From NCBI GenBank assembly GCA_951406725.2, contig OX597831.1:40548001-40612000 (forward strand): a DNA stretch of 64,000 nt, given 5' to 3'. Position 1 is the first letter of the stretch; the number at the start of each line of letters is the position of its first letter. Position numbers and translations under genes: made by a program. This document shows, one piece after another, positions 4,933 to 62,064 of this stretch. Under the pieces are notes generated by a model. It had not been told where the DNA came from. It saw nothing but the letters and a program-made list of their open reading frames with translations, and ran no database searches. This stretch comes from Octopus vulgaris (taxonomy: Eukaryota).

Positions 4933-5048
4933 AACTAGTCTATCGTAACTAGTCTATCGTAACTAGTCTATCGTAACTAGTCTATCGTAACTAGTCTATC
5001 GTAACTAGTCTATCGTAACTAGTCTATCTAGGAAAACTAGTCTATCGT
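4933..5048. repeat. 14-bp tandem repeat (aactagtctatcgt): 6 perfect units, one partial unit, one further unit
   Basis: Read directly from the sequence. Confidence 0.95.
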
Positions 5049-6726: not shown

Positions 6727-7270
6727 GTGTGGTCTCATGTATAAGTACCCGAACTGTTGCTATAGTAACGAAGCTAAAATTCGCAGTGTGAAGCCGCCCG
6801 ACACAGATTGACTTTGAACTCTGCTGTGTATGCGCACAAAGTTTTAACGTTCTAGCTCACTTCCGCTGTTTACAGCAGTGCTTGGCAGAAACGTGTAGCG
6901 TGTGACTGTCGCATTGACCATGGACCTGCATCAACTTTTGTAAAAAGTTTGGTGGTACCTGCCAAGAGGCCTACGCAAAGTTACAGAAAGTGTATGGAGA
7001 GGAGTGTAACTGCCGAAAAAATGTCGATAGTAACGACCTTTCTGAGAGACTCGAAACCAATAGAACTGATGTGCGTCCAGCTGTGGGGGGGAAATCATCG
7101 AATCACCATCCATGAGTTATCAGAGGATATGCAGATTAGCTACGGTTCAGTTCAGTCCATTATCACTGAAGATTTGGGTATGAGATCCGTGTCTGCCAAG
7201 TTTGTACCAAAACTGCATGCAGGTGACAACGCACCTGCCAATGCAGCGCAGCTTGTGCAGCAATTTTAGC
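6727..7270 (+). pseudogene. Decayed Tc1/mariner transposon fragment
   Basis: ORF 6949-7269 contains RITIHELSEDMQISYGSVQSIITEDLGMRSVSAKFVPKL (HTH plus WVP-like linker) joined by a deletion to DNAPA. Confidence 0.85.
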
Positions 7271-7521
7271 CGGGACCCTGGCGGGAGCTATTGCTTCAGT
7301 ACAGAGTAGACGAGTGGAGAATAGTGGCTAAGAGGTGGTTCAATTCCACATTCCTTAAAACTCAGGAACTCGTAGAACCTCACGACCGGATGCAGTTTAA
7401 AAGCAAATCGAAGACATCTGCAAGGTTACAAAACTATAACGCATTGAAAACGCTATATACGTGTATGAAAAGACTATTGACAATCTAATTAATTAAGAAG
7501 TGAACTATAGTCAGCACTAAC

Positions 7522-7554
<33 letters not shown>

Positions 7555-7774
7555 CTCAAGATACGATGGTTTTATCCTTTTGCTGTACATAAATCTCTCA
7601 TCCGTTTGTTATTACTGTATGTATTATTTGTTTGTCGTAAGTCTATTGTCTATCTTGTTATCTATACATATATTATCTTATAGTTTATAATCATAGTATC
7701 CATTTGTTAATCCGTTGTCAATGTGATAGTTATTAATCGCTTAAGACTTGTTATAAATATAATAAATCTTCTGA

Positions 7775-8200
7775 AGGCAGCGAGCTGGCTGAACCGATAG
7801 CACACCGGGCGAAATGCCTAGCTGTATTTCGTCTGTCTTTACGCTCTGAGTTCAAATTCCGCCGAGGTCGACTTCGCCTTTCATCCTTTCGGGGTCGATA
7901 AATTAAGTACCAGTTACGCACTGGAGTCGATGTAATCGACTTAATCCTTTCGTCTGTCCTTGTTTGTTCCCTCTATGTTTAGCTCCCTGTGGGCAATAAA
8001 GAAATAAGAAATGTTTGCACGCCGGGCGAAATGCCTAGCGGTATTTTGTTTGCCGTTACGTTCTGAGTTCAAATTCCGCCGAGGGCGACTTTGGCTTTCA
8101 TCCTTCCGGGATCGATAAAATAAATACCAGCTGAGCACTAGGGTCAATGTAATCGATTTATTGCCTCTCCAGCAAATTTCTGGCCTTGTACCACAATTTA
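7775..8200 (+). mobile_element. tRNA-derived SINE family A, dimeric copy
   Basis: ggcagcgagctggc head, B-box gagttcaaattcc, and central ctttcatcctttcggggtcgataaattaagtacc domain. The body is present twice. Confidence 0.9.
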
Positions 8201-8614
8201 AAACGAATATAACAACTCTTTTTAAGAGTGGTTAAACGCGTATAAGGAATTAAATTTAAATGAATTAACAATAATCCTCGGATCACACTTGCTAAACTCT
8301 TACCTTTTGTTCTTTACAGTCATTAGATCGCGGCCATGCTGAAGTACTGCCTTGATAGTTTTAGTCGAACAAATCAACCACAGAATTTCTTATCTTTCAA
8401 AATCCGCTACTTGTTCTAATGGTTTCAATTTGCGGAACCACTAAATCACAGGAACGTAAACCAACCAACACCGGTTGTAAATCAGTGGGGACGGACAAAC
8501 ACAGTACAAGCACAAACAAACAAACACACTCATATACATATAAGTGAGCCCGTATCGATCAGATCAATACCTGACCAAAATCATTCCAGCTATCAGCGTA
8601 CCCATCACTTTTAT

Positions 8615-9400
8615 AGACATGGTGTATAGTGTATCTTCGACTACATTATCTAATGTGTCATTGTTTCCTGGTATTTACTCAAGTAAGTTCGAAGTGATAA
8701 AAAATTTCCACCTTGGAAGGAGTTGACTTTTTCGACTAAGTATATCTAAGACTACATGATGTAATGTTTTCTTGTTTCATGCTATTTATTTGATCAATTT
8801 CGAAGCGATAAAAGTGTAAAATATCCATCTTGATAAGATTTTACTTCGCACTGACTAAGTGTATCTAGGACTATGATGCTTCATGCTACGAGGTCGACTT
8901 TGCCTTTTATCCTCTCGGGGTCGATAAATTAAGTACCTGTTACGCACTGGGGTCGATGAAATCGACTTAATCCGTTTGTCTGTCCTTGTTTGTCCCTGCT
9001 GTGTTTAGCTCCTTGTGGGTAGTAAAGAAATATATATATTGAATGAAAATTGAACCATACAAAATTAGATCCAGATTGGTCAGATTTGATATTTTGTACA
9101 CTAAGTCCATCTAGGACTACAGGATGTAATGTGTCACTTTCGTACAGTTAGTTTAATTAGATTCGAAGCAATAATAAAAAAAAAAACATAACCCACCACT
9201 TTAATCAGATTTGACTTTTTGTAGACTAGATGTATCTTGGAGGACATGATGCAATATGCCATTTTTTCATGGTATTTAATTGAATTCAAAGTGACAAAAA
9301 AAAAAGGAAAATCCACTTTGGCGAGATTTGAACACGAAAACGGAAAATGAGGCATCTAGTGCTAGCAATTCAATACGACGTCTTACCGTTTCTACTACAT
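8615..9400. repeat. Degenerate 110-120 bp tandem array interrupted by a SINE-A fragment (8889-9031)
   Basis: Recurrent unit gactaagtgtatctaggactacatgatgtaatgt...tcgaagcgataaaa...ccaccttg...agatttgact, about 6 units. Confidence 0.65.
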
Positions 9401-10412
9401 CCACTGTTTTCCATTCCACCGCCGTCACCGAACTATCGAGGCCAGGGCTCGGTTCACGGTTATTAGTGTCTTTGATCATAGGCCAGCCTGATTCAAACTG
9501 ACTTGGGGCTATATAAGAACAATTCCACGCTGTGTACAGTTAATAAATGCTGACGCCATTCTGATACATTTCCACAACGTTTCCATGTCCACCATTAATG
9601 TAAATTCGGCTGATCTTTGCTCAAGGTTAAATCCAGAATTCTCCACGGTGGTTTATTATAACTTGATAACGCAGCAACCCAGATCTCTTCTCGGCTGCTT
9701 TTCTCCCCCCCCCCCCCCGCTAACTCTGCCATATACACCTCAGTGAATATTTCCTAAATATTATACGTACATCTGGTAATAAAGTTCTTTTTATAATGTT
9801 TTTTCAACTTCTCCGTTCTAAAACCTGAAGGCGCCAACATAGCTGATTAGATAACTCGCAATACGCATGTGTACGTAAAAATATTATATCCGGTAACGAA
9901 TAAATCGAGTTAGGAATTTACGCAGACGTTGTGTTCACCAGATGCAACAGGGTGAGAAGCGTTTGTGGTAATATCGATTATATCTCACCATCAGCTAAGT
10001 ATTGTGTTTATAACCGGAAGTATTATGTCTACACACCTTTATCAAAACTCGATAAATCAATATGTTTTTGTTTTGCTTTCTGTTAAGCTATTTATATTTA
10101 TTTATATATATATTTTTTATTCATTCATTTTGCCATTTACCTATACCAAAATGCCGGTCTAATTACTTCACAATTATCGTTGCAGAAGTTCGTTGTTGCT
10201 GTTGTTGTTCATGATGATGATGATGTTAATTTTTAGTGTTGTTGTTTTGTGGTTTGGCACTATATAACCTTTGAACGAGCACAGCTATGATAAAAGAAAA
10301 AAAGAGGAAAAAACTCATTTTAACAGTAACCCTTCTGTTTCTCTGTAAATCAAAAATTGAAAACTACGTTAGCCGTTGTATTTCATTTACATATACATAC
10401 ATACATACATGC

Positions 10413-10531
<119 letters not shown>

Positions 10532-10533
10532 TG

Positions 10534-10574
<41 letters not shown>

Positions 10575-10578
<4 letters not shown>

Positions 10579-10830
10579 AGAATTCACAAAAAAAACAACA
10601 AAACAAAGGACGAAGACAGGTGGTGTAGACAACAAACAGATGTATTAGTTTAACGCACGGGAAATGAAATTGTTTTTAACGTTTCGAGCCTACGCTCTTC
10701 TACAAGAAGGAACACAGAAAGAAGCAAGGAGAAAAAATAAAGAATGTGTAATGGCTAGCGATCTATTATGGCGAATGCCGGACAGAGGGGTCTCACAGGA
10801 AGAAGGGGAGATAAGAAAGTAGTGGTGATC
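10575..10830 (-). mobile_element. (TA)n-abutting non-autonomous element with a decayed minimal hammerhead (10674-10706)
   Basis: Minus strand reads TTGTAGA-A-GAGC-gtag-GCTC-GAAACGTT-aaaa. Stem II and GAAAC plus the ACGT palindrome are intact; the CUGANGA box is degenerate. Confidence 0.5.
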
Positions 10831-12874
10831 CCAAAACGAAGGTGCTCGTGTGTGTGTATAAGAGAGTTTGTATGTGCGTGTGGGAGAGGGCTGGTGACCT
10901 TGATGTGTGCGTATCTGTAGGAGTGGGGATGTGGGGATGGGAAGTAGTCAGTGCTAGTGTGTGCGTGGTGGTGTGATGTGATGTGATGTGGTGTTGTGTG
11001 GCATGGTGGTGTATGGTGTAGTGGTGTGTGGTGTGGTGTGATGCTGTTGGAATGTGGGGGAGGCGAGAGTGGGAAAAGCAAGGGCGGGGTGTGGGTTAGG
11101 CTATATATATGCATATATAGATATATATATCGTTGCAATTATGTTAAACTGTCGTATGTACAAATTTGGCCAAATGTGCTTTTTTTTTTCAATATTTAAT
11201 TTTGTTTGCAATAACCGGTTCTTTTGGTCAAACTATCGTATCTCCAGCTGTTTCAGATGCCAAGATATAAAAAATTATCAAAGTGTAGTAGGTCCCACAT
11301 AGGACAGTCTAGCAAAAATATTTCTGACTGAAAATATCATACATGCATGGAGTTACCATTTTATGCACCCAACAAACTATTATTGTTAAGTTGAAACTGT
11401 TGCTCATGTACACAGAAATGGAATGGTGAAACTATCTTTTCGTTTTCTGGGGAAAAAAAGCATCGTTTTGGACTTACGACACTTTTGCATAATAGCAGGG
11501 ACGCTTCTATCAATAAAAACGAAGTTGGATAAAGTGAGCGGTTTCAGAATAGAACTACTCCGAAGGAGCACCAGTCCTTTCCCAACCACATGGTTCTAAG
11601 TTCAGTCCCACTGTGTGGCAGCTTGAGCAGGTGTCTTCTATTCTAACATGGAGTCGACCAAAGCCCTATGAGTGGATTTGGTGGACGGAAAGTGAAAGAA
11701 ACCTGTCGTATATATCTATATATCTATGTGTGTGTGTGTGTGTGTTTTTGTGTCTGTGTTTGTTCCCCCTTAATGCATGGGGGTTATTTGTCAAAAAAGC
11801 AAACCAAAAAAAAAAGACTATCCCCAAATATAACAATAACCTATGGTTTTCTTGAGGAAAGTAATTTCTGTGCAGTATACAAGTACTATAGCTGCACAGT
11901 GAAAATCACCAGAGGCAGGCGCGGACACCGTTCCTACTATTTCCAACATATTGTGAGTTCCATTACAGCGCAGATAAAAGAATATAAAACCGTTTTATTT
12001 TTTCTTCTCTTCAGAAAAGCAGTTCTGTGGAGCACTCAAATAATGACGATAAACAGTAAGGATTCCCAAGAGAATCAAACTATGATATTCCGAAACTTTC
12101 TTTCTTAACGTGCAGCAAGGTCACAAGAAGTTTTCTGAATATAGACGTCGCATTGAAGCACCACAAGTCAACAAGTATATTTTACACAATAAAGCTGGTT
12201 GTATAGAGATTAGTATCAGAGTTCCGAACAAAAAGTAATGAGGTTTAAGAGTAATAAACGCTTACATAAACGCACGAATAAACATATGCACAGCTGCATG
12301 TAATATAAATATACTTACATTCGTCCATACGTATACGTATTGTTAATTGTATAGACCGACAAAAATTAATTTAAAAAGTGGATCGACCAGAAATGCAGCT
12401 GGCAGCTGTTACTGATTTGCATTTGCATTCAAACACACACATACATACACATACACACACTCACATATATACACACACATACACACATATAACACGGAAA
12501 CATTGTAATACATACATACAAACATACATACATACATACATGCATAAATATGTATACAAGAATTCAGGTAGAATTGCGTCTAATAACGTAATATGACAGG
12601 TATATGCAATAAGTACTCAGAGTGACTAACCAATTAAAACGTCGACTTGACCTGCGACTAAAACGAAGAGGTGTTGTAGATGCCTAGCAATGAACGGCTA
12701 TAAGTGGTTTATCATTAAGCACACATAAAGCGGAAAGAAATAATGAACAGGCAAACGGTCGGTATCCATTTAGAGCCTGGAATTTATTTTAAAATAATTT
12801 CAGAGTTTTTAGAATAGAGTTGTTAGAATAGAGTGTGTTATATACACAAGAGGATTAGAAGGCGTACAGATAAT

Positions 12875-14562: not shown

Positions 14563-14797
14563 AGGGCGGCGAGCTGGCGGAAACATTAGCACGCCGAGCG
14601 AAATGCTTAGTGGTATTTCGTCTGCAGTTACGTTCTGAGTTCAAATTCCACCGAGGTCGACTTTGCCTTTCATCCTTTCGGGATCGATTAAATAAGTACC
14701 AGTTACACACTGGGCTCGATGTAATCGACTTAATCCTTTCGTCTGTCCTTGTTTGTTCCCTCTTTGTTTAGCCCCCCTGTGGGCAATAAAGAAATAA
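14563..14797 (+). mobile_element. tRNA-derived SINE family A
   Basis: Full head-body-tail match to the other family A copies. Confidence 0.9.
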
Positions 14798-14997
14798 ATA
14801 TCTTTCTGTTGTCGTTACTATAATATAATTAAGGGTTATCTCTGTGTGTTGCCGTGCGGTGTTTATGTTTTCTTGCGGTCTTCAATAAAAGAGCGGGAAA
14901 CTGCTCGAGAACAAAACCCCACACCGAAGGTTTCTTTGGTTTTAAGTTAAATTAAATTCTCTCATATAGGTTATATGGTTGTATACACTTTTATATA

Positions 14998-15054: not shown

Positions 15055-15680
15055 TTGGAAATGGATGTGTGGCGTTCGATCATATAGCGCACTCTACAAC
15101 CTATCTCTATTCTATCTCTCTCTCTCTTGCTCTTCTTCCTTTCTGCTTTTCTCTCCCACCCTTTTATCCAATTCTTCTCCTCTCCCCTTTACCGTTCCCT
15201 CTCTCTCTCACTCTTCCTCCTTGACTCTCTCGTTGTTCACACGTGACCAACAGCTATCTATCTTTCTTCCACTTCTTTCCTAAAGACAACACGTGCTTTT
15301 GTCTGTCTCTTCGCAAAGCTCGTTTTTCCAGCGTTCACCACTTCACCACGTTAGGGCTATACAGCCCTCAACCCTTTTTTTACTGTTTTTTTTTTCTTAC
15401 TGTCCTGCTTTTGTTACTACTTTAACCCTCCGCAAAAATCCCAAATTTTATTGAATTTGCTTTGCGGGAAGGAATGTTTTAACGAAGGCGCATCTTGTCC
15501 CTACCTTCGAACGCAGAGTAGATAAAATAGGGGACAACTGATGAAGGGGATGTTCTTTATGTTTCCTGTCACGTTTCTCTATTTCTTTCTTTCGTTGTTC
15601 GAAAAAAAGTTCGTTTTCCAAGCTTTTTTATATTCTCGTTTCTCATTTTGTTCACGTTTTGGGACATCCTGTAACCAGAT
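15055..15680 (+). mobile_element. (TA)n-flanked non-autonomous element, same family as 41981-42910, carrying a permuted hammerhead
   Basis: Colinear similarity to the reverse complement of about 42110-42600 (cgtgcttt..., tcgttgtt..aaaaaaagt.cgt, and the ribozyme block). Confidence 0.65.
15488..15549 (+). ncRNA. Non-circularly permuted hammerhead motif, partly decayed
   Basis: gcgcaT-C | TTGTCCC-ta-CCTTC-GAACGC-(14 nt)-agGGGACAA-CTGATGA-AGGGG. Stem I is 7 perfect bp; one A of GAAA is missing. Confidence 0.65.
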
Positions 15681-16308: not shown

Positions 16309-16680
16309 AGGCAATTGCTATACCAAAGACCTGTATCACATTATGAAAAGTCCGAAAAGGAACATTTGGTATTATCTATAATGGTAGGTATATTGGGTTT
16401 CACTGAGAAAGTATGTTTGTAAATCTTCATAATCAAATAGGTGTGCAGGGTATTGTTGGACTTTGAAAATCCGTCCATACTGTATCATCAGTCAATATAG
16501 AGTGAATGCTGAGTAGATTCCAGTGGGTTCATTCTTCTTGTAAGGGAAGGAAATAAGGAGAATTGAAGGTTGAGAGAAAAGAGACTTCTTTTTCCTTTTC
16601 TTTCTCTTTTTTCTCAACCTTCAATAATTCAATCTTCCTCTATATATTTTCATTACTGTAGCTATTGTTCACATTTTCCT

Positions 16681-16950
16681 AAGGCGGCGAGCTGGCAGAA
16701 ACGTTAGCACGCCGGGCGAAATGCTTAGAGGTATTTCGTCTGCTGTTACGTTCTGAGTTCAAATTCCGCCGAGGTCGACTTTGCTTTTCATCCTTTCGGA
16801 GTCGATAAATTAAGTACCACTTACGCACTGGGGTCGATATAATCAACTTAATCCGTTTGTCTGTCCTTGTTTGTCCTCTCTGTGTTTAGCCCCTTGTGGG
16901 TAGTAAAGAAATAGGTATTTCATCTGTCTTAACCTTCTGAGTTCAAATTT
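16681..16950 (+). mobile_element. tRNA-derived SINE family A
   Basis: Near-consensus copy followed by the start of a second body. Confidence 0.9.
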
Positions 16951-17167: not shown

Positions 17168-17694
<527 letters not shown>

Positions 17695-24141: not shown

Positions 24142-24510
24142 AGCGGCGAGCTGGCAGAAACGTTAGCACGCCGGGCGAAATGCTTATCGGTATTTCGTCT
24201 GCCGCTACGTTCTGAGTTCAAATTCCGCCGAGGTCGACTTTGCCTTTCATCCTTTTGGGGTCGATTAAATAAGTACCAGTTACACACTGGGCTCGATGTA
24301 ATCGACTTAATCCTTTCGTCTGTCCTTGTTTGTTCCCTCTTTGTTTAGCCCCCCTGTGGGCAATAAAGAAATAAATATCTTTCTGTTGTCGTTACTATAA
24401 TATAATTAAGGGTTATCTCTGTGTGTTGCCGTGCGTAATCGACTTAATCCGTTTGTCTGTCCATGTTTGTCCTCTCCGTGTTTAGCCCCTTGTGGGTAGT
24501 AAAGAAATAG
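24142..24510 (+). mobile_element. SINE family A with a 17-bp target-site duplication and an internal captured segment
   Basis: ggtatatattaaagtta occurs at 24125-24141 and 24510-24526. 24261-24435 is identical to 14684-14858. Confidence 0.9.
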
Positions 24511-24691
24511 GTATATATTAAAGTTAGCTAAGGCCGATTTTTGGAATTACCTGACGTTGCACGTCCATAAAAGGCTTGGCTTTATGGCTTATCATACCCG
24601 TATGTGCGTATATAGTGAGGGCGGATGAATGTACATACACTGATGTTTATGTCAACCTTTATAAATAGATTACTTAACATTCATAAGGCAA

Positions 24692-25561: not shown

Positions 25562-26146
25562 TAAATAAATGGTACAACGAAGTACCGATATTTACTGGAA
25601 ATAGCGAACGTAATAAATACGACGCTAATGTATAGCTTCACTGCGTATGTACTAGTAAAGATGCGTGTGTGCAACAAACATGAAAAAAATTGTCTTACCT
25701 TTAGGAAGAACATCTGAAAAATGAAAAACCTAGATATCGGATAATGCAGTACCGGTTTCGGATTTTTCAAAATACGAATGCCAATCGTATAATTGATTTA
25801 TCCTCATCAGCTGCATAAACCTCAACAATATTTCAAATGTTGCCACATCTATACCAGTACACTCGTCTGAACGCCAAAACGTTAACAGAGCGAGAACAGT
25901 GAAGAAGTTTCAATGAAAATAGTAATGCAATACGAGAGTATTGCTTTCCAGTAAAGAATAGCCCGTGAGGGTAAAATTATACATAAAAGTAAATAAATAG
26001 TACAACGAAGTACCGATATTTACTGGAAATAGCGAACGTAATAAATACGACGCTAATGTACCATTTATTTACTCTTATGTATAATTTTACCCTCACGGGC
26101 TATTCTTTACTGGAAAACAATACTCTCGTATTGCATTACTAATTTC

Positions 26147-26603: not shown

Positions 26604-26842
26604 AATGAAAAGAAGAAGGCAAAGAAAATTCTTGAACACATCTTTAATTTGAAGTTACAGATGTTTCTGTGTCATCTACATTTGCAACACTAGTTTACGC
26701 GAACTTCTAAAAAAACAAAAAAACAAAGTGCGTTGTATTTGCGGCTGTTCAAAGAAGACTTCAAATGTAAATAAGCGAGAAAATGGACAAACCTTGGCAT
26801 CGTGATGTTATCAAAAAAAAGGTTTTAGTCCTCAAGGACATT

Positions 26843-27233
26843 CTTTTTTACTCTAGGCACAAAGCCCGAAATTTTTGGGGAGGGGGTCAGCCGAGTAGAT
26901 CCGACCTCAGTACAAAACTGGTAACTTAATTTATCGACCCCGAAAGGAGAAAAGGCGAAGTCGACCTCGGCTGAATTTGAACTCTGAACGTAAAGACAGA
27001 CGAAATACCTATTTCTCTACTACGCACAACGGGCTAAACACAGAGAGGGCGAACAAGGACAGACAAACGGATTAAGTCGATTATATCGACCCCAGTGCGT
27101 AACTGGTACTTATTTAATCGACTCCAAAAGGATGAAAGGCAAAGTCGACCCCGGCGGAATTTGAACTCAGAACGTAACGGCAGACAAAATACCGCTAAGC
27201 ATTTCGCCCGGCGTGTTAACGATTCTGCCAGCT
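26843..27233 (-). mobile_element. SINE family A, dimeric copy
   Basis: Reverse complement of head plus two bodies with the terminal ttgtgcctagagtaaaaaag tail. Confidence 0.9.
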
Positions 27234-27234
27234 T

Positions 27235-31441: not shown

Positions 31442-31992
31442 ATAGCACGTCGGGGGAAATGCTTAGCGGTATTTCGTCTGCCGTTACGTTCTCAATTCAA
31501 ATTCCGCCGAGGTAGACCTTTGCCTTTCATCCTTTCGGGGTCGATTAAATAAGTACCAGTTACGCACTGGGGTCGATGTAATCGGCTTAATCCGTTTGTC
31601 TGTCCTTGTTCGTCCCCTCTGTGTTTAGCCCCTTGTGAGTATTAAAGAAATAGGTATTACGTCCTGAGTTCAAATTCCGCCGAGGTCGACTTTGCCTGTC
31701 ATCCTTTCGAGGTCGATAAATTAAGTACCAGTTACACAATGGAGTCGATGTAATCGATTTAATCTGTTTGTCTGTCCTTGTTTGTCCTCTCTGTGTTTAG
31801 CCCCTTGTAGGTAGTAAAGAAATAGGTATTTCGTCTGCCGCTACGTTATGAGTTCAAATTCCGCCGAGGTCGACTTTGCCTTTCATCCTTTCGGGGTCGA
31901 TTGAATCACTACCAATTACGCACTGAAATCGATGTAATCGAGTAGCCCCCTCCCGCCCCCAAATTTTCATGGCCTTGTGCCTAGAGTAGAAA
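31442..31992 (+). mobile_element. SINE family A, trimeric array
   Basis: Three tandem B-box plus central-domain bodies, then the terminal tail. Confidence 0.9.
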
Positions 31993-32149: not shown

Positions 32150-32640
32150 GACCTACAGATTTTAAAAAAATATTTTTTTGTAACTAAACACTTTCAAACT
32201 TCTGACGCTGGTAGAACGTGTCATATAAAACATATTTTACTCTTAGCATTTTTGAGAAAAAAACTTATTTTTTGCAATGGCTGAAACGATGGAACAAAGT
32301 GCTTCCGAGAAATTCTGTTTTCCGCTGGGTAAAACTGCGGCCAAAACAGTAGCCATGTTTCAAACAGCTTACACGAAAGCTGCTACGAGCAAAACACAAG
32401 TTTATGAGTGGTTTTCACGCTTTATGAACGGTCACTTGTTGCTTGAAGACCAACCGCGTTCAGGACGACTGCTGACCTCCCGAACGTTGACCTCTAGCAC
32501 TACTTCGAATTGCGGAAAATGCGCCTTGACCGGTGCATTGCTTCAAATGGAGAATATTTTGAAGGCAATAAAAGTGACAACATATAATACTAAGTGAATA
32601 AATGAATATTGTGAAAATTCCGCTTTGTTTTCAGTACCCC
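32150..32640 (+). pseudogene. Internally deleted mariner fragment
   Basis: ORF 32277-32597 contains KFCFPLGKTAAKTVAMFQTAY...SKTQVYEWFSRF.NG...LEDQPRSGR (mariner N-terminal HTH). Confidence 0.85.
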
Positions 32641-34408: not shown

Positions 34409-34466
<58 letters not shown>

Positions 34467-34484
34467 CATTATTATTATTATTAT

Positions 34485-35978
34485 ATGTTTGACTTTTGCT
34501 TTATATTTGTACAAGTTGGCTCCAAGTCTCACCCGGAGACCTCAAGAGACAACAGGTTGGAAGTTCACGTTGTTGTTATGCCTAGTGTGCCATATATTTG
34601 GGTTGTTTTTTGTGTTGTACTGGTGGATGTCTAAAAAAAAAGAAAATGTTTGTTTTAAACCTTGAGATTACATAGAAAGTATTTTGCGTAGGATATGAGC
34701 AGTTCCCATGAGCACTATCTTTTGAATTTCTGCCATTTTTGGGTTTCCTGGTATCTGAGTTAGGTAGCAATCAGCCCCTTTTGCTATCATTCCCAGGGCA
34801 ACTATGACAACAGGTATTGTTTTAGTCTTCAGGTTCCACATTTTGCTGATTTCTATTTCAAGATCTTTATATTTGCTCAGTTTTTGGTAGGTCTTGATAG
34901 ATACGTTTATATCGATTGGGACAGTCATATCAATGAGGAGGCATGTTCTTTGTTTGAAGTCTTTCAATATGATGTCTGGCCTATTTGCATCTATCTTTCT
35001 GTCAGTTTGAATGGTGAAGTTCCAGAGGAGTGAGATGTGGTCATTTTCAAGCACTGGGGGTGGTTTGTGTTTCAACCAGTTTTTTTTCATGGGGCAAATC
35101 CAGGTTTTTGCAGATTACCCAGTGAATATATTGTGCAGCTCTATCGTGCCTGTTGAGATACTCTGTAGGCGCTAGAAGACTGCACTTGGAGACCACATGA
35201 TCAATGGTTTCATTTTGTTGCTGGCATACACACGTTGGACTGCTGCTGATCTTTAATATGTTGGCCTGGTAGTTTCTTGTTGGCAGGCATTGATCTTGAG
35301 CTGCTATGATAAACCCCTCTGTTTCAGATTTTAAGCCAGAGGCCATTAGCCATTGGTGGGTCGGGGCTTTGTCAACATCTGCATTATTCGCTCTCTTTGG
35401 GTATTTGCCATAGAGAGGTTTTTCTTGCCATTTATCATTCAGAATATCTAAGGCCGCAGATTTAGCACGGGTTTTCATGCACTTAGCTTCTTCTGTGGCT
35501 GTTTCTTGTATGTCTATCTCTAATTCCGAAATTTGTTGTATTCGGAATTCACTTAGATATTCCTTTGCCTGTTTTGTTACTGAGTATGATGCTTTCTTGT
35601 TTTCATGTTTTGAGACAAGTTTTAACATCCAGTCCTCAGAGTTTTTCAGGTAGGTGTCTAAGCCAATTGTAGCAATCTTCATTGTTATTGCCAGTTGTAA
35701 AAGTCCACGGCCTCCCTCTTTTCTTGGCAGATAAAGTCGTTCTGTATCTGCCGTAGGGTGGTGCATTCTATGCATTGTCAACAGTTTTCGTATTTTTCTG
35801 TCAAGATTACATATTTCAGTAATTGACCAGTTAACGATATTGAAACTGTAAGTCACGACTGGTATGGCTAATGCATTGATCGCTTCGATCCTGTTTCTCG
35901 CATTCAGCTCTGTCTTGAGTATTGTTCTTACTCTGCGATAACATTCTCTCCTGATCCTTTCCTTCATCTCTGAATGCC
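34485..35978 (-). mobile_element. R4/Dong-type non-LTR retrotransposon, 5'-truncated (end of RT, CCHC finger, restriction-like endonuclease)
   Basis: RLYLPRKEGGRGL, ETIDHVVSKC, YLNRHDR, RPDII, IDMTVP and KLSKYKDL in ORFs 35047-36000 and 34668-35090. (TAA)n on both sides. Confidence 0.92.
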
Positions 35979-35996
35979 TTATTATTATCATCATCA

Positions 35997-36059
<63 letters not shown>

Positions 36060-36064
<5 letters not shown>

Positions 36065-39765: not shown

Positions 39766-40160
39766 AAGACGGCGAGCTGGCAGAAACGTTAGCACACCGG
39801 ACGAAATGCTTAGCGGTATTTCGTCTGCGTTACGTTGTGAGTTCAAATTCCGCCGAGGTCGACTTTGCCTTTCATCCTTTCGGGGTCGATAAATTAAGTA
39901 CCAGTCACACACTGGGGTCGATATAATCGACTTAATCTGTTTGTCTGTCCTTGTTTGTCCTCTCTGTGTTTAGCCCTTGTGGGTAGTAAAGGAATAGGTA
40001 TTTTGCTTGCCGTTACGTCCTGAGTTCAAATTCCGCCGAGGTCGACTTTGCCTTTCATCCTTTCGGGGTCGATAAATTAAGTACCAGTTGCGTACTGGAG
40101 TCGATCTAATCAACAGGTACCTCCACACAAAAAAATTTGGGCTTTGTGCCTAGAGAAAAA
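39766..40160 (+). mobile_element. SINE family A, dimeric copy
   Basis: Head, two bodies and tail. Confidence 0.9.
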
Positions 40161-40929
40161 GAGATTAACTATTATTATTCGCACACACGCACAAACACAC
40201 GCACACACACCGTCTAATTCTTTCTGTTTCCGTCTACAAAATACACTCACAAGTAGCAGCACAGTGGGATTGAACCCGGGACCATGTGATTGAGAAGCAA
40301 ATTTCTTACCAGACAACTACGTCAGCGGTTATGATCGTAAGGTTTTTTCATTGAGAGTACTTCAAGACATTTTCTCATCACTCTGCTTTATGATCATCAT
40401 AGTTCACTTCCGTTTCCAAACCAGTTTGAAGAAACCTACGCGTTGAATAACGAACAAAAGAGAGAGAGAGACAGAGACAGACACACAGACACACAGACAC
40501 ACAGACAATAGGCAGACAGACAGACAGAGAGCATTCAGTACATATTTTAAAGTGCAATTATATGTATCTGAATAACGACTGTTTCTGGTATTTTATTTCT
40601 CACTGATTCAAGAAGTCTCTCCGCAGTGAATTGTTTATCGTCCTGCGCAAATCAGCCTAGGAAGTATTCACACGGCAGCAAAAATGTTGAAAATGAAAGA
40701 CGACACTTTCAACACCCCTTATAGGTCAGTGCTTGCTTATAGTAGGACTACTAAGCACTGACCTGCCAAACCATCTAAATTCCTAAATTCTTCCTTCCTT
40801 ACTACTAACCCTATCTCTGCCCCATCACTTGGACTCTATCACTACACATTTGACACACCTTTACCTTTTATCACCCTCCATTCCTTCTATCTTTTTACAA
40901 TCTAATACCTTTCTCTCTCTACCATCCTT

Positions 40930-41147
40930 AGCTGGCAGAAACGTTAGCACGCCGGGCGAAATGTTTAGCGGTATTTCGTCTGCCGTTACGTTGTGAGTTC
41001 AAATTCCGCCGAGGTCGACTTTGCCCTTTCGGGGTCGATAAATTAAGTACCAGTTACGCACTGGGGTCGATGTAATCGACATAATACCTATGTCTGTCCT
41101 TGTTTGTCCTCTCTGTGTTTAGCCCCTTGTGGGTAATAAAGAAATAG
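40930..41147 (+). mobile_element. SINE family A
   Basis: Near-consensus copy with a short internal deletion. Confidence 0.88.
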
Positions 41148-41589
41148 GTACACATTCCCTTATATATTTGTTTTTCAATTTTTCTTCTTTCTTTCCTTTA
41201 TTCCTCTCTTGTTTTTTTCCTTTTTTTATTATTTTATTATTTTTCTCCTTACTTTCTTCTCTTTCTTTTCTCTTTTTTCTCTTTTTCTCTTTACTTATTC
41301 CTCTCTTCCTGTTTTCGATTTGACCCTACCAATACATTCCCTACTTTTAGGTCACTTTAAATAAAACTCTTGATTCAATAACATTGTGTATCAACTCTAT
41401 ACTTGGAACGACCAATTTTAAATACTATTCGATTTTACTCATAGGGTATTGGAATCTTATATGTATACCATTATGCCTAAATAATGGATCTACAACTACA
41501 ATATCCCTACATATCTCACATCTATTTTCATTCCTCCTCTATTTCGTATCTTATCTAAATTAAGTATTACTTAACCATCCTCTCACACC

Positions 41590-41984: not shown

Positions 41985-42910
41985 TACTTGGATAAGAGAA
42001 ACAACGCGTGCGTTCGGTCATATAATAACAATATAATAAATAAATAAAACATATGCATATATACATACATATATGTACATACTTACATCTATATGTATAT
42101 ATACATGCAAATAAACGGAGGACACGAGAAACGAAAACATAAAATCAAACAAGGAGACGGACTTTTTTTAAACAACGAAAAAACAGAGTACAGGACAAAC
42201 AATACAAGGAAAATTCCCCTTCATCAGCTGCCCCTGGTTCGACTCAATGCGTGTTTCGAAGGTAAGGGCAGAACACGACCCGGCCGAAAAAATCCTTCCT
42301 GCAAAAGGAATTAAATAAAATTATTTTGCAGAGGGGTAAAACAAGTGACAAGAACAGGACGTAAAAGCAATACAAATGAAGAAAAAACAGTAGAAAAAAC
42401 AGTACAAATAAAGAATAACAGGACAAGGAAACCAACAATAAGGGCTTTTTTTAAGCCTAGACGGCGGAAAAATCGGCTTGCGAAAGACAGAGAAGTCGAT
42501 GTTGGCTTGTTGAAAGCACGAGCTGAAAGAAAGTTTTAGTAGCACTCCGGTCAACGGCCAGAGAGAGGAGGAGGAGGAAGAGGAGAGAGAGAGAGAGAGA
42601 AAGAAGGAAAAGAAACCAGAAAGGGTGAAAAATAAGAAGGAGAGAGACAAGTAGAGAGGAAGACAGACAGGCAGGGAGGAAAGGTCAAGTAAAGAGTAAG
42701 AGTGCGCGTTATGATTATTCAAATAAAAACTTACTTGGAGAAGAGAAACAACGCGAGCGTTCGGTCATATAATAACAATATAATAAATAAAACATATGCA
42801 TCCTGTACTCTATTTTTTCGTTGTTAAAAAAAGTCCGTTTCCTTGTTTGATTTTATGTTTTCGTTTCTCGTTGTGTTCTACGTTTATTTGTGGTGTCCTG
42901 TACTCATATA
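41981..42910 (-). mobile_element. (TA)n-flanked element: 747-bp unit with about 75-bp terminal redundancy, inverted duplication and permuted hammerhead
   Basis: Direct repeat 41981-42058 / 42728-42801. About 42107-42194 is inverted at 42801-42890. About 42020-42108 is inverted at 43188-43277. Confidence 0.85.
42216..42277 (-). ncRNA. Non-circularly permuted hammerhead motif with complete core
   Basis: Minus strand reads CGTGT-T | CTGCCCT-ta-cCTTC-GAAACACG-(14 nt)-aGGGGCAG-CTGATGA-A-GGGG. Strand order is III'-UH-I, then II'-GAAA-III, then I'-CUGAUGA-II. Confidence 0.75.
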
Positions 42911-42924
42911 TATATATATATGAT

Positions 42925-43152
42925 AAGGCGGCGAGCTGGCAGACACGTTGGTGCGCCGAGCGAAATGCTTAACGGTATTTCGTCTGTCGTTACGTTCTGA
43001 GTTCAAATTCCGCCGAGGTCAACTTTGCCTTTCATCCATTCGGGGTCGATAAATAAAGTACCAGTTTCGCACTGGGGTCGATATAATAGACTCAATCTCT
43101 TCGTCTGTCCTTGTTTGTCCCCTCTATGTTTAGCCCCTTCTGGGCAGTAAAG

Positions 43153-43155
<3 letters not shown>
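42925..43155 (+). mobile_element. SINE family A
   Basis: Full match to the family. Confidence 0.9.
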
Positions 43156-43191
<36 letters not shown>

Positions 43192-47418: not shown

Positions 47419-48524
47419 TTTACATTTAATCACAATAAACATATCATCAATGTGGGCTGTTCAGCAAAAAATTGCAGAACCGTCCCTTTCGGACACGAGG
47501 GACAACAATCGTATATTTCTTTGGTCTTTGAATGAAAACTATTTTAAAGAAATAAGACCATTTTATAAAAATGTTTGTAGCAGAACTGCAGCCTTCTGTT
47601 AACATTTATTTTTTTAAAATTTCTAAAAATAAAAAAATACAGTTAAGATTGGTAAACATATTATTATAGTTTCAGGCATGGCTGTGTAGTTAAGAAACTC
47701 CATTGAAGCCGTATGGTTTCGGTGTTCAGTTCCATTGAAAGGCGTGTCTCAGGCAAGTGTCTTTCACTACAGTCCTGGGCCTATCACTGATTTGTGAGAG
47801 AATTTGCCAAACGGAAACTATGTGAAAGTTCATAGTACACAGACACACGCACGCACGCACATACACACATACACACACACAGCCTGCACCTATATACATA
47901 TATATAACAGCAGAATATGGAGAAAACTTTTGATCAGCAAACAAACAAATTGACTAATATCGGTTAACTATTTTTTACTACAAAATTTAACATTGCTTAC
48001 GGCCGTTTCGGCTACCAATGTCAGTTGGTGCCTACAAAGAAAATTCCGAAAATTATATTCGTCACCTTTATAGCACATTCGATCTCGTACATGGAGATTC
48101 GTCAGAGTGAATACAAATACATAAGATAAAAGAAGGGAAGAGGGAAGAAGAAAGAACAGGGCCTCGAGATGAGGCAAGAAGGCTCAATATATTACAATCA
48201 TGCCATTTTGCAGAGTGAAGCTTAACGTCGATGTGCAAAAGAGTAAACTAGCAAATAATCCAGAAAAATAATTGGTGGGTTACCTCTTTTATAGGGGTAC
48301 CAGGGTACATAAATAATAGTAAAATATAACTAGTGCTAAAGTAAAACAGGAATCGCCAATATGTCTAGAAAAAGGACAGTTCTTGTGATTTCGTAAATAG
48401 AGCTAATTAATATTTATCCCAAAACAAACACGTAAAGTTTTTATAATAGTATCCTTAGTGAAATATTCAAGAGACCAACCACCTATTCACCGTAATGTAA
48501 TTCACCAAAGTCCAGCTATATCTA

Positions 48525-48569
<45 letters not shown>

Positions 48570-48584
48570 ATGCATATATATCTA

Positions 48585-48634
<50 letters not shown>

Positions 48635-48668
48635 CCTACCTATCTATCTATCTATATACCTACCTATA

Positions 48669-48729
<61 letters not shown>

Positions 48730-48730
48730 G

Positions 48731-49858
48731 ACAGACAGATCTCAACATGTTGTAGTTGAAGGGGTAAAATCAAGCCCAGCCAAAGTCAGTAGTGGCGTTC
48801 CGCAAGGCACTGTGCTGGGCCCACTTCTTTTCATCATTTACATTAATGACATTAATGACATCATCAAGCACAGCAACATAAAAATCTTTGCAGATGACTC
48901 CAAGCTACAGAAGGTCATAAATGAGGCGAGTGACCGGACATGCCTTCAGTCAGATCTACTGGCTGTTATCCAATGGGCAGAAAAAAACAATATGCTGCTG
49001 AACGAGGATAAATTTGAGCTAATCCACTTTGGAAAAGAGGATGCCCTGAAACTCCCATACTCCCTTCCTTCAGGTGAAACTCTCGCGGCGTCCAACAACA
49101 TCAGAGACTTGGGAGTAATTGTGGACAACAACGTAAGCTGGGCCACTCATATAAACACCAAAGTTGACATGGCCCGCAGAATGTGTTCCTGGATTCTCAG
49201 AACTTTCCAGTCGAGAGATATCCACACCATTATCCTTCTCTTCTCCACTTTTGCCCGACCCCACCTTGAATACTGTTGTCCACTGTGGTCTCCCCACACA
49301 ATACAAGGTATCATAAAAGTTGAAGCACCTCAAAGGGCAATCACAAAAAGATAGATGGCATGACAGGCCTCGACTATTGGGGTCGGCTAGAAAAGCTAAA
49401 ACTCTATTCTCTCCAACGTCGTCGTGAGCGCTACATCATCTGCATGATGTGGAAAATATTCCATCAGCATTGCCCAAATGATGTTGGCATCACCTTTAAG
49501 GTACATCCAAGGCTTGGGCCCCGTGCCATCCGCCCAAAACAAAAATCGCACTCTCATCTCATAACAACAATACGGCACAATTATTTCACCTCAATTGGCC
49601 CCGCTCTCTTTAACATTACACCAAAACACATTAAAACAGAAACTGACCCTATAGGGTTCAAGAAGTCTTTGGACAGATTCCTTCAAGAAATCCCGGATAA
49701 ACCCCCTACACCCGGATATGTCTCTGTAAACAATAACTCTCTACTTGAGTGGGCCATAGTGCCCAAATTCTGACATGAAAGACTTCACCAGGTGGTGCTA
49801 TTAAGTTAGACATGGCCTGGGCCAATAATGGCCGAAACCTATCAAAGTATATCAAAGT
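48731..49858 (+). mobile_element. CR1-group LINE, 5'-truncated reverse transcriptase with 3' UTR
   Basis: SGVPQGTVLGPLLFIIYIND, FADD, RDLGV, HLEYCCPLWSPH, LKLYSLQRRRER. One frameshift near 49354. 3' short repeats tatcaaagta. Confidence 0.93.
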
Positions 49859-52285: not shown

Positions 52286-52304
52286 AAAGTGTACGTACGC
52301 CGCT

Positions 52305-52725
52305 ATATGTATATAAAATAAAATACAAAATGGGACAAGAACGCAAAACATCCGGACAACTAAGTGATACAAAAAGTACAACAAAGCATCCAGATAGACG
52401 ATACAAAAAAGCAAGGACGTGTCATTCGAAGTCTTTTATCCTCAGTCAAGAACCGGATCATCCTCGCAATTTCGGCTGATTAATCTTGAGATTGCTCCAA
52501 TCTGGCTAGCCCCAAGGAAAAACTAACCTAAGAGCATTAGATTCCTTGGAAAAAGCATCGAATGTATACGAAAACAAGGACAGAAAAAACAGACGATGTT
52601 ACACGAATATAAAAACAACAATACAATAAAAATGAATATACCTGGATGTTGTGTTGTCCATTTTTGTATCACCTAGTTGTCCAGCTGTTTTGCGTTCTTG
52701 TCCCATTTTGTATTTTATTATATAA
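52305..52725 (-). mobile_element. Microsatellite-flanked element with about 80-bp inverted termini and a permuted hammerhead motif
   Basis: About 52312-52393 is inverted at about 52642-52722. Confidence 0.75.
52430..52495 (-). ncRNA. Non-circularly permuted hammerhead motif, second sequence family
   Basis: Minus strand reads GCAAT-C | TCAAGA-ttaatcagcc-GAAATTGC-(14 nt)-TCTTGA-CTGAGGA. Stems I (6 bp) and III (5 bp) are perfect; stem II is poorly defined in this copy. Confidence 0.6.
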
Positions 52726-53141
52726 ATATATATATACACACATACATATGTGTGTGTATGTGTGTGTGTATACAAAAGGCTTTATATACAAAAGGATGCT
52801 TCAGTTTTAAAATGTCCAGTTTATTGAATGACGCCTGCAATGTTTCATATACAACTATAAAAAGGTGAAAAGCAATATGAATTATGATTTATGGAACAAT
52901 TACCTCCAGTTTGTGTTGTTTTTTTCGATTATTTCGTTTCCTCGAATATGTATTTATATTTCAATATAGCAGAATAATATATATTCAGTTTCTGAAACAA
53001 AGTCATGTACTTGTGTCTGTATGTGCATGCTATGCATGCACGTATGTATGTATGTATGTATGTATGTATGTATGTATGTATGTATGTTTGTATGTATGTA
53101 TGTATGTATGTATGTATTTATGTATGTATGTAGGTATGTAT

Positions 53142-58141: not shown

Positions 58142-58908
58142 ATTCTTTTCTACTCTAGGCACAAGGATGAAAGGCAAAGTCGACCTCGGTGGAATTTGAA
58201 CTCAGAACGTAAAGACAGACGAAATATTGCTAAGTATTTCACACGGCGTGCTAACGTTCCTTATTTTTTTATTACCCACAAGGGACTAAACATAGAGGGG
58301 ACAAACAAGGACAGACAAACGGATTAAGTCAATTATATCGACCCCAATGTGTAACTGCTACTTATTTAATCGACCCCGAAATGATGAAAGGCAAAATCGA
58401 CCTTGGCGGAATTTGAACTCAGAACGTAAGGACAGACGAAATACCTATTTCTTTACTATCCACAAATGGCTAAACACAGGAAGGACAAACAAGGACAGAC
58501 AAACGGATTAAGTCGATTATATCGACCCCAGTGCGTAACTGGTATTTAATTTATCGATCCCGAAAGGATGAAAGGCAAAGTCGACCTCGGCGGAATTTGA
58601 ACTCAGAACGTATCGGCAGACGAAATACCGCTAAGCATTTCGCCCAACGTGCTAACGTTCCTGCCTGCTTGCCGCCTTTGTAGAAGAAAAATATTCTTTT
58701 TTACTCTAGGCACAAGGCCCGAAACTTTTGGGGAGAGACCAATCGATTAGATCGACCCCAGTACGCAACCGGTACTTAATTTATCGACCCCGAAAGTATA
58801 AAAGGCAAAGTCGCCCTCGATGGAATTTGAACTCAGAACATAAAGACAGACGAAATATCGCTAAACATTTCACTCAGCGTGCTAACGTTTCTGCCAGCTC
58901 GCCGCCTT
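58142..58908 (-). mobile_element. SINE family A multimer (four bodies)
   Basis: Four tandem ggaatttgaactcagaac B-box units. Confidence 0.9.
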
Positions 58909-60601: not shown

Positions 60602-61032
60602 ATTCTTTTATTAGCCACAAGGGCTCACATAAAGCAACATTAAATGCCATGCTACAACATAAAAGACAAAAACAGGACGGTACAATCTGTTTTTCAGCGT
60701 GTAAACAATATAAATAATAATTAAAATTGAACAAATTAAAACTCCCCATAGGGGAGGCGCTTTAAGGTCCTCGTGAAAAAACCCAGAAGAGCCACGGTTG
60801 CCTGATCAACAGAGCAAGAGCCCTTCTACTTTAATTCCCCCGCCTTTTTTTACAGGAGCACACGTAGAATTGGTCCTTTCACACTGGTCATTCTTCCAAT
60901 ATTCACCCACCTTTCAACAAACGTACCACAAATTGAAAAAGTTGATGAGGGTTTGGCCAAAGAAGAAAATGTCTGTCTTCGGCCCTTTCAAACAGGTCCA
61001 CCATACTACCTCTTTCGCTACAGCCGCAAACA
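60602..61032 (-). mobile_element. Probable 3' end of an L1/Tx1-type LINE
   Basis: Minus strand AVAKEVVWWTCLKG...GQTLINFF resembles the K..IW..R C-terminal motif of L1/Tx1 ORF2. Ends in aataaaag next to a long (AAT)n. Confidence 0.35.
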
Positions 61033-61051
61033 AATAATAATAATAATAATA

Positions 61052-61995
61052 ATTCTGGCTGATAAATGGCAAGAAAAACCTCTCAATGGCAAATACCCAA
61101 AGAGAACGAATAATGCCGATGTTGACAAAGCCCTTACCCATCACTGGCAAATGGCTTCTGGCTTAAAATCAGAAACAGAAGGGTTTATCACAGCAGCCCA
61201 ACATCAATGCCTACCTACAAGGAACTACCAGGCCAACATGTTAAAGAACGACGTCAACAATAAAATGAGACCATTGATCATGTTGTCTTCATGTGCAGTT
61301 TTCTTGCGCCTTCAGAGTATCTCAACAGGCATGATAGAGCTGCACAATATATTCACTGGGTAATTTGCAAAAACCTGGACTTGCCCCATGATAAAAAATG
61401 GTTGGAATACAAACCACCCCCAGTGCTTGAAAATGATCACATCTCACTCCTCTGGAACTTCACCATTCAAACCAACAGAAAGATGCAAATCAGCCAGACA
61501 TCATATTGAAAGACATCAGACAAAAATCATGCCTCCTCATTGATATGAATGTCCCAATCGATATAAACGTATCTGTCAAGACCTACTTAAATCTGAGTGA
61601 GTATAAAGACATTGAAATAGAAATTAGCAAAATGTGGGACCTGAAGACTAAAACAATACCTGTTGTCATAGGTACCGTAGGAATGAAAGCAAAAGGGGCT
61701 GAGTGCTACCTAGCTCAGATACTAGGAAACCCCAAAATGGCAGAAATTCAAAAGATAGTGCTCATGGGAACTGACCATAACCTACGTAAAATACTGTCTA
61801 TGTAATCTAAAATTTTAAAACAAACATAATTTACTTATGGTTTCTTAAACATTCTCTAGAACAACACTATGTACAAAACCAAATATATGGCACCATAGGC
61901 ATAACACCAACATGAACTTCTAACTTGTTGTCTCTTGAGGTCTCTGGGTGAGACTCGGATCCAACTTGTACAAATATAAAGCAAAAGTCAAACAT
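61052..61995 (+). mobile_element. R4/Dong-type LINE, second 5'-truncated copy of the 34485-35978 family
   Basis: DKWQEKPL.GKYPKR, GLKSETEGFI, YLNRHDR, EIQKIVLMGT..LRKILSM. Shared 3' UTR; (TAA)n on both sides. Confidence 0.92.
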
Positions 61996-61997
61996 AA

Positions 61998-62064
<67 letters not shown>

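What the first reader, a model, noticed from the sequence alone, without database searches (positions are those of the whole stretch)
52430..52495. Unrelated element with the same permuted hammerhead topology
Seen: different helix sequences (stem III ATTGC/GCAAT, stem I TCAAGA/TCTTGA, AUC triplet, CUGAGGA) in the same strand order and again with a 14-nt linker between III and I'. The host element has about 80-bp inverted termini. Inference: a second sequence family using one topology suggests a ribozyme subclass rather than chance. Caveat: stem II is not convincing here (best option GACT/AGCC after a 5-nt insert).
Basis: partly seen in the sequence, partly recalled or inferred. Interest (0 to 1): 0.75.

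Follow-up and report, generated by a model that had tools for sequence, protein, structure and literature searches.

The report
Scrambled hammerhead opened inside its core
A short, abundant repeat in this animal genome carries all the signature letters of a hammerhead self-cutting RNA in a scrambled order, and its helices are predicted to be wired in a layout I found in no paper searched, which would, if it cuts, explain why some Naiad retrotransposons seemed to lack a hammerhead.

Summary
The missing stem II lies upstream of the finding, not downstream: GGCU (52511-52508) pairs with AGCC (52477-52474). Directly 5' of it sit an 8-bp hairpin (V) and a strand that pairs with the bases after A9 (helix IV). 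The chain therefore appears to enter at G10.1 and leave after A9, a break the published six-permutation scheme assumes cannot occur.

The same wiring, with different helix sequences, is in two other window copies, in 16 of 23 long copies of a coral-type repeat (3 of 69 chance matches), and, read by eye, in five published Naiad retrotransposon tails. Six nematode Naiad tails read as type-CSG hammerheads.

The host is a 429-bp, (TA)n-flanked Penelope-like fragment with 94-nt inverted arms. This copy has two private mismatches. Cleavage is untested, the predicted fold is not the lowest-energy one, and 5' ends of copies do not mark the cut site.

The parts
52304..52732 (-). Host element: non-coding Penelope-like fragment between TA-rich runs
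   Evidence: 4,333-12,071 contigs laid per run in 4 of 4 runs and (TA)n loose ends at 52318
52639..52732 (.). Inverted arm at the 5' end of the ribozyme strand
   Evidence: 94 nt, 88% identical to 52304-52396
52304..52396 (.). 3'-terminal arm
52558..52564 (-). Helix IV distal, 5' strand (7 bp with 52429-52423)
   Evidence: pair probabilities 0.94-1.0
52550..52556 (-). Helix IV proximal, 5' strand (pairs 52437-52431; one mismatch private to this copy)
52512..52549 (-). Hairpin V, 8 Watson-Crick bp, 22-nt loop, 0 nt from IV and 0 nt from G10.1
52507..52511 (-). Stem II 5' strand, G10.1 = 52511 (4 bp in this copy, 5 bp with the majority G at 52507)
   Evidence: 52507 changed in 99% of depth in 4 of 4 runs
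52484..52495 (-). S block: stem III strand, U16.1, C17 (52490, predicted cut on its 3' side), stem I strand
52466..52478 (-). G block: stem II 3' strand (C11.1 = 52474), G12-A13-A14, stem III strand
52452..52465 (-). 14-nt linker with a 9-nt quasi-palindrome (52463-52455) and GGU before stem I
   Evidence: the outer pair of the palindrome changes on both sides on a loose-end haplotype
52439..52451 (-). Stem I strand and core C3-A9 (CUGAGGA; majority A at N7 = 52441)
52423..52437 (-).
42216..42336 (-). Second family, same wiring: IV 5 bp, V 8 bp, II 5 bp, III 5 bp, I 8 bp
15426..15548 (+). Decayed second copy of the second family: one A missing from GAAA, 4 two-sided changes and 4 broken pairs against the 42.2-kb copy

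Best explanation
The minus strand encodes a predicted hammerhead ribozyme whose cleavage-site, GAAA and CUGANGA blocks lie in non-circular order and whose core is likely opened between A9 and G10.1, sitting in the tail of a probable non-autonomous Naiad-type Penelope-like element. 5' to 3' the strands run IV, hairpin V, II, III-UH-I, II'-GAAA-III', I'-CUGANGA, IV'. Shown from sequence: the core letters and complementary strands for all five helices. Inferred: helices IV and V stack on each other and cross over to the core as a four-way junction, holding A9 next to G10.1 without a covalent link; the core then would cut 3' of C52490 by the usual hammerhead chemistry (established knowledge: 2',3'-cyclic phosphate and 5'-OH). 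The two products would stay paired through II, III and IV. The likely role is trimming element transcripts, as proposed for ordinary Penelope hammerheads, possibly needing the element's protein. The family master is more likely active (about 0.6) than this mutated copy (about 0.35).
For: (1) The IV-V-II module is in 3 of 3 window copies with 0-nt gaps between IV, V and II. Shuffling the 110 upstream bases gave any module in 27, 8 and 18 of 2000, and an equal or better one in 4, 0 and 11. (2) It is in 16 of 23 long coral-type copies against 3 of 69 non-family matches to the same core words; a downstream stem II of 4 bp or more is in 0 of 82 family copies. (3) Stem II words differ between families yet pair and start G10.1-C11.1: GGCUG/CAGCC (this family's majority), GAAGG/CCUUC, GGCUCC/GGAGCC, GACACC/GGUGUC in Naiad_Obim and Naiad_Ovul (by eye). 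(4) Both private changes of this copy that fall in helices (52432, 52507) break a pair that the majority restores; three A/G polymorphisms (52433, 52435, 52436) sit opposite U in helix IV. (5) Of the 11 numbered core positions checked only N7 is among the 40 variable sites shown; H17 is C, U or A, not G, in the families seen. (6) Two-sided changes: 4 of 31 pairs between the two second-family copies, 4 of 43 pairs in 22 coral-type copies. (7) An unpaired base between 9 and 10.1 is typical of Penelope hammerheads (PMC4209133), so this step tolerates change.
Against: No cleavage assay. ViennaRNA, which cannot model the three crossing helices, prefers a different rod for this copy (-42.3 kcal/mol against -19 to -21 for nested subsets); pair probabilities are at most 0.15 for V, 0.01 for II and 0 for III. 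Six shown variants break a modelled pair as listed (52437, 52467, 52484, 52544, 52556, 52558); 52484 is compensated on a loose-end haplotype and 52556 may be an indel shift, the rest are unexplained. 8 variable sites were hidden. Within-family covariation is modest (6 to 33 of 500 shuffles reach it, 23 of 500, related sequences). 7 of 23 long coral-type copies lack the module. The descriptor was written after seeing the motifs. Naiad_Esco fits only partly (no clear V, II starts A-U). 5' ends of 82 coral-type copies fit a smooth fall-off better than a hard limit at the cut. No RT-coding neighbour ties this copy to a Naiad. A canonical Penelope hammerhead cut only with protein and was not needed for insertion in vitro (PMC11167929).
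Confidence: 0.62

Rival explanations
1. The five-helix fold is real but no longer cuts. It is a hammerhead-derived structure kept as a binding or pausing signal for the element's reverse transcriptase.
For: No assay; competing folds are more stable; copy 5' ends pile up in and just beyond the structure without marking the cut; hammerhead cleavage was dispensable for insertion in vitro in another Penelope element.
Against: Catalytic letters are kept while helix sequences differ between families, with N7 free and H17 not G; nematode Naiad tails read as complete type-CSG hammerheads at the same place (by eye).
Confidence: 0.2
2. One reading: an ordinary type-SGC hammerhead whose stem II is GGCU (52433-52430) after a 5-nt insert, dead in this copy because of the change at 52432.
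For: The majority letter restores GGCU in 4 of 4 runs. A strong 9-bp helix between 52467-52459 and 52419-52411 resembles the extra helix of published SGC ribozymes. Natural stem II can be 1-2 bp (PMC3088659).
Against: The would-be G10.1 (52433) is A in 8-17% of depth. No such partner in 82 of 82 coral-type copies. Published SGC rows seen have 0-1 inserted base. The same bases pair in helix IV.
Confidence: 0.08
3. Stem II is made by GG(C/U) just 5' of the stem I strand, giving one long I+II hairpin that could only work as an antiparallel dimer.
For: GGU at 52454-52452; GGC or GGT in 66 of 82 coral-type copies; minimum-energy folds use such a pairing in the 42.2-kb copy; Penelope hammerheads are proposed to act as dimers (PMC4209133).
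Against: Only 2-3 bp, against 4-7 bp for the upstream partner; it does not explain helices IV and V or their 0-nt spacing; the loose-end haplotype has GGA.
Confidence: 0.06
4. Chance complementarity in an AT-rich, self-complementary repeat, with no selected RNA structure.
For: The descriptor was shaped after the fact; 3 of 69 chance loci pass the upstream module.
Against: 0 of 200 strict shuffles; 0 of 32 viral chance matches pass stems I and III; same wiring in families without sequence similarity.
Confidence: 0.04

Closest known systems
Type-SGC hammerhead ribozymes (HRIMA-1 and SGC variants; Eckert et al. 2023, PMC10085705; main text parts 1-6 of 8 read, supplement parts 1, 8, 18, 19 of 42 and one search)
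   Same: S-G-C order of cleavage site, GAAA and CUGANGA; three crossing helices; short link from stem I to stem II; full core.
   Different: There stem II follows CUGANGA after 0-1 base and the blocks are assumed unbreakable; here the stem II strand lies upstream of S and two extra helices sit at the A9/G10.1 step. The paper found SGC only in metatranscriptomes and none in genomes of known organisms; this is in a genomic repeat.
Type-CSG hammerhead ribozymes (same paper; two sequences, metagenome DNA, both cleave)
   Same: Same non-canonical cycle C-S-G, with stem II linked to stem III by about 10 nt; moving the I-CUGANGA part of a CSG ribozyme to the 3' end gives this layout.
   Different: CSG is open between G and C and has a helix joining stems I and II; this one is open inside block C.
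Minimal type I hammerheads of Penelope-like elements (Cervera and de la Pena 2014, PMC4209133; parts 1-2 of 4 read)
   Same: Sits in a Penelope-like repeat; extra sequence between positions 9 and 10.1; G10.1-C11.1.
   Different: Those are canonical C-G-S with little or no stem III and are proposed to be dimers; this has a full stem III, scrambled order and could fold as a monomer. One canonical example lies in this window at 25810-25750.
'HHR_half_core' / 'HHR_core' in Naiad elements (Craig et al. 2021, PMC8557442; passages, metadata sheet and 3' ends of 53 of 54 Naiad consensi seen)
   Same: Naiad_Amil, Aacu, Anas, Obim and Ovul tails show this wiring by eye; (TA)n targets and inverted flanks match the host element; the 42.2-kb copy shares a 14-nt stretch and both stem I hexamers with Naiad_Obim.
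   Different: The paper reports no canonical hammerhead in Naiads and assigns no structure to these cores; this copy has no coding region to place it in the clade.

Membership tests
Hammerhead ribozyme | Core CUGANGA, GAAA and NUH | tested here: met
   CUGAGGA 52445-52439, GAAA 52473-52470, AUC 52492-52490
Hammerhead ribozyme | Stems I and III adjoining the core, with A15.1-U16.1 | tested here: met
   6 bp and 5 bp
Hammerhead ribozyme | Stem II starting R10.1-Y11.1 | tested here: met
   G52511-C52474, 4 bp here, 5 in the majority
Hammerhead ribozyme | A9 joined to position 10.1 directly or through 1-2 bases | tested here: not met
   The 10.1 strand lies 72 nt upstream of A9; the gap is bridged only by predicted helices IV and V
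Hammerhead ribozyme | Site-specific self-cleavage after H17 | not testable with these tools
   Needs an assay; the 5'-end test was uninformative
Hammerhead types I-III (Rfam) | Circular block order and a covariance-model match | tested here: not met
   Order is S-G-C; no hammerhead family among 5 matches at E up to 10 over 52300-52740
Type-SGC hammerhead | Block order S, G, C | tested here: met
Type-SGC hammerhead | Published descriptor: CUGAUGA(U)G followed at once by stem II | tested here: not met
   Descriptor read and compared by eye, not run: N7 is G or A and no stem II follows A9; downstream stem II in 0 of 82 coral-type copies
Type-SGC hammerhead | Helix joining the linker before stem I to the sequence after stem II | tested here: inconclusive
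   A 9-bp helix 52467-52459 / 52419-52411 is possible but overlaps stem III, and common variants at 52463, 52465 and 52414 break it
Naiad Penelope-like element | N-terminal GIY-YIG endonuclease and Naiad-type RT in the element | tested here: not met
   The 429-bp copy holds no such gene; 0 of 9 window ORFs scanned hit GIY-YIG. Link is by tail structure only
Naiad Penelope-like element | Insertion in (TA)n with an inverted 5' copy of the 3' end | tested here: met
   feature described in PMC8557442; shared with other Penelope clades
Non-LTR retrozyme | Tandem units each with a type I hammerhead | tested here: not met
   Single, non-tandem copy in the window; motif is not type I
MITE (DNA transposon) | Fixed terminal inverted repeats shared by all copies | tested here: inconclusive
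   Summed depth at 52619-52633 is 0.2-1% of the peak over the motif, suggesting the 5' arm joint is rare, but contig depth is no copy count

The most novel reading that the evidence does not exclude
Naiad retrotransposons do carry self-cleaving RNAs that earlier descriptors could not see: complete type-CSG hammerheads in nematodes, and in corals and cephalopods an active seventh hammerhead layout that is both non-circularly permuted and opened at A9/G10.1 by a two-helix junction, present in very many copies in animal genomes.
Probability: 0.5. Interest if true: 0.9.

Novelty: new variant of a known kind. Interest (0 to 1): 0.8.

Why it matters
Eckert et al. listed six possible hammerhead layouts on the assumption that CUGANGA and its flanking stems cannot be separated, and found the scrambled ones only in environmental sequence. 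A cleaving example of this motif would break that assumption, show that the A9-G10.1 bond can be replaced by a helical junction, and put non-circular permutations in animal genomes at high copy number. It would also give a direct test of an open point in Craig et al. 2021, that Naiads lack hammerheads: the 'half cores' would be whole ribozymes in another order. All constructs are about 150 nt and can be assayed by in vitro transcription.

Tried and rejected
No whole genome is held, so no genome-wide copy alignment was possible. Exact or near-exact patterns for this family found nothing in metagenome contigs, prokaryote genomes or viral contigs. A pattern for the second family found 0 viral loci and 1 bacterial locus; by eye that locus has no stem III. 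Rfam: none of the 150 best of 413 whole-window matches shown was a ribozyme, and none of 5 local matches. No RNA holder was listed among 24 runs; this says nothing about expression.

5'-end test for cleavage: among 82 coral-type copies the rate of 5' ends drops from 15 in 218 position-copies (4-8 nt upstream of TTAAT) to 4 in 982 (9-40 nt) (predicted cut at 6). But a hard limit at 6 fits 3-5 log-likelihood units worse than a smooth fall-off, so I do not count it as evidence of cutting. The palindromes after A9 first looked like dimer signals; in the coral family they proved to be the helix IV strand.

Prior art: 9 answered paper searches and term searches in PMC13725137, PMC7936874, PMC10162972, PMC13159263, PMC3088659, PMC11167929 and bioRxiv 10.64898/2026.07.22.740005 (passages; for the preprint also part 1 of 5) showed no report of permuted hammerheads in Penelope-like elements or of an opening at A9/G10.1. 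The library lacks most subscription journals, the preprint's supplements are closed, and I saw only part of the Eckert and Craig supplements, so prior mention is not excluded. Earlier-findings look-ups by sequence and place were empty.

Full report
Observation. The motif is on the minus strand as described. Reading 5' to 3': stem III strand 52495-52491, C17 at 52490, stem I strand 52489-52484, AGCC 52477-52474, GAA, stem III partner 52470-52466, 14 nt, stem I partner 52451-52446, CUGAGGA 52445-52439. A descriptor using only the core words and stems I and III, in any order, gave two hits in 64 kb, both S-G-C (52445 and 42227). Shuffles gave 0 of 200 at strict and 1 of 200 at loose settings. A relaxed scan added a decayed relative of the 42.2-kb copy at 15538 and a canonical Penelope-type minimal hammerhead at 25810, among several weaker hits. 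Rfam does not recognise the motif.

Host element. The motif lies in a 429-bp segment between TA-rich runs, with 94-nt inverted arms 88% identical. It is single in the window but abundant: 4,333 to 12,071 contigs of each of four public runs (four organism labels, three studies) lay on it, with similar variant spectra and (TA)n loose ends. About ten positions differ from the majority in roughly 90% or more of depth, so this is a mildly decayed copy. The organism is not shown by any search; that it looks like an octopus is my recollection, supported only by the likeness of the second family to octopus Naiad tails.

What is published. Eckert et al. (PMC10085705) describe S-G-C hammerheads that cleave at 0.007-0.19 per minute, found in metatranscriptomes and not in genomes of known organisms. 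They assume CUGANGA cannot be separated from stems I and II by more than one or two bases. Their descriptor needs stem II right after CUGAUGA(U)G, and the alignment rows I saw have 0-1 inserted base. The window motif fails this. Craig et al. (PMC8557442) report that Naiad elements target (TA)n, form inverted flanks and lack canonical hammerheads, though 8 families have a 'half core'.

Finding stem II. I read the last 290-520 nt of 53 of 54 Naiad consensi by eye. Six nematode families show complete C-S-G hammerheads with the joining helix. Three coral and two octopus families show S-G-C with stems I and III but no good stem II after A9 (the Aacu consensus has mismatches in I and II). One squid family fits partly. 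In the other 41 I recognised neither layout in the stretch shown, which does not show absence. A pattern built from words shared by the window and the coral tails returned 119 metagenome loci from a third of the collection; 82 form one repeat family, nearly all from two assemblies. In their upstream flank the partner of GGAGCC appeared: GGCUCC, about 10 nt before stem III. Directly 5' of it is a hairpin, and directly 5' of that a 10-nt strand complementary to the bases after A9.

Back to the window. The same three elements were then found by script in all three window copies, with no gap between IV, V and II. Here II is 52511-52508 with 52477-52474, V is 52549-52542 with 52519-52512, and IV pairs 52554-52550 with 52437-52433 plus a 7-bp distal part. 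Shuffled upstream sequence gave any such module about 1% of the time. In the coral-type set the module is in 16 of 23 long copies, 5 of 59 other (mostly 5'-truncated) members and 3 of 69 non-members; a downstream stem II is in 0 of 82 members. The octopus and coral Naiad consensi show the same strands by eye. The variants mostly fit: the two private changes in helices each break a pair the majority restores, three A/G sites lie opposite U, and N7 is the only core position among the 40 rows shown (8 rows hidden). Overlapping loose ends suggest a subfamily with stem I UCGAGU/ACUCGA, two pairs changed on both sides; this rests on consensus pieces with 0.69-0.91 agreement.

Against. Six shown variants break a modelled pair unless compensated elsewhere. 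Within-family covariation is modest. Nearest-neighbour folding prefers another structure by a wide margin, though it cannot score the crossing helices. The pile-up of copy 5' ends near the predicted cut looked promising but fits a smooth fall-off better than a limit at the cut. GG(C/U) before stem I is conserved here and in 66 of 82 coral-type copies and is not explained by the model. Nothing shows that the motif is transcribed or cuts.

How it likely works. Shown: core letters and complementary strands. Inferred: IV and V stack into one helix whose nick presents A9 and G10.1 side by side, a four-way junction that replaces the covalent link; stems I, II and III then build the normal core, and cutting would occur 3' of C52490. 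In terms of the published scheme it is the non-canonical C-S-G cycle opened at a fourth point, which would connect it to the nematode CSG forms. The role is probably the one proposed for other Penelope hammerheads, trimming long transcripts (PMC4209133), with the caveat that one such ribozyme needed protein and was dispensable in vitro (PMC11167929).

Earlier notes of this scan describe phage hammerheads opened at the same step (e1-5983839, e1-5861567) and twister-like motifs in bivalve Naiads (e1-6818684). I saw e1-5861567 before finding the upstream stem II and e1-5983839 after. They are unchecked AI notes and are not counted as support.

Verdict. Real feature; works like a hammerhead by anatomy; not a member of types I-III or of type SGC as defined. 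New variant of a known kind, interest 0.8. Confidence that the five-helix structure is real about 0.88, that the family master cleaves about 0.6.

Noticed in passing
Craig et al. 2021 supplement, 3' ends of Naiad-1/2/3_Nbra, Hcon, Hpol, Asuum: Each reads by eye as a complete type-CSG hammerhead with stems I-III and a long helix joining stems I and II; only two CSG sequences were published.
   Followed up: partly
Same supplement, Ptep, Smim and Dst Naiads: CUGANGA preceded by a C run, with a complement of the following bases a short way upstream; I could not resolve the layout in the stretch shown.
   Followed up: no
Same supplement, bivalve and hemichordate Naiads: A different shared motif near the 3' end instead of a hammerhead core; earlier AI notes call it twister-like.
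   Followed up: no
window 25810-25750, minus: Canonical type I Penelope-style minimal hammerhead (palindromic stem III, long loop II) in an element with inverted arms.
   Followed up: partly
window 52463-52455, minus: Nine-base quasi-palindrome in the G-C linker whose outer pair changes on both sides on a subfamily haplotype; possible small hairpin or dimer contact.
   Followed up: partly
window 52454-52452; L034-L151: GG(C/U) directly before the stem I strand here and in 66 of 82 coral-type copies; unexplained, could be an alternative pairing with GCC.
   Followed up: partly
window 7774-8210, 14565-14858, 16680-16949, 24143-24514, 26840-27234, 31443-31992, 39766-40167, 40930-41150, 42924-43162, 58163-58908 and others: Abundant dispersed repeat of about 250 nt with a B-box-like word and internal duplications; looks like a tRNA-derived SINE (label from recall).
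   Followed up: no
window 34416-36060, 48407-49773, 60806-62064, 32256-32597: Broken retroelement and transposase remnants: RVT_1 at 48407-49351 (E 7e-11), weak zf-RVT at 35050-36060, Mos1 HTH_48 at 32256-32594.
   Followed up: partly
window 17168-17694: Inverted arms of about 90 nt around a microsatellite-filled interior.
   Followed up: no
Eckert supplement row Ga0247524_116441: A published SGC variant has the same stem III words as this element; probably coincidence.
   Followed up: no
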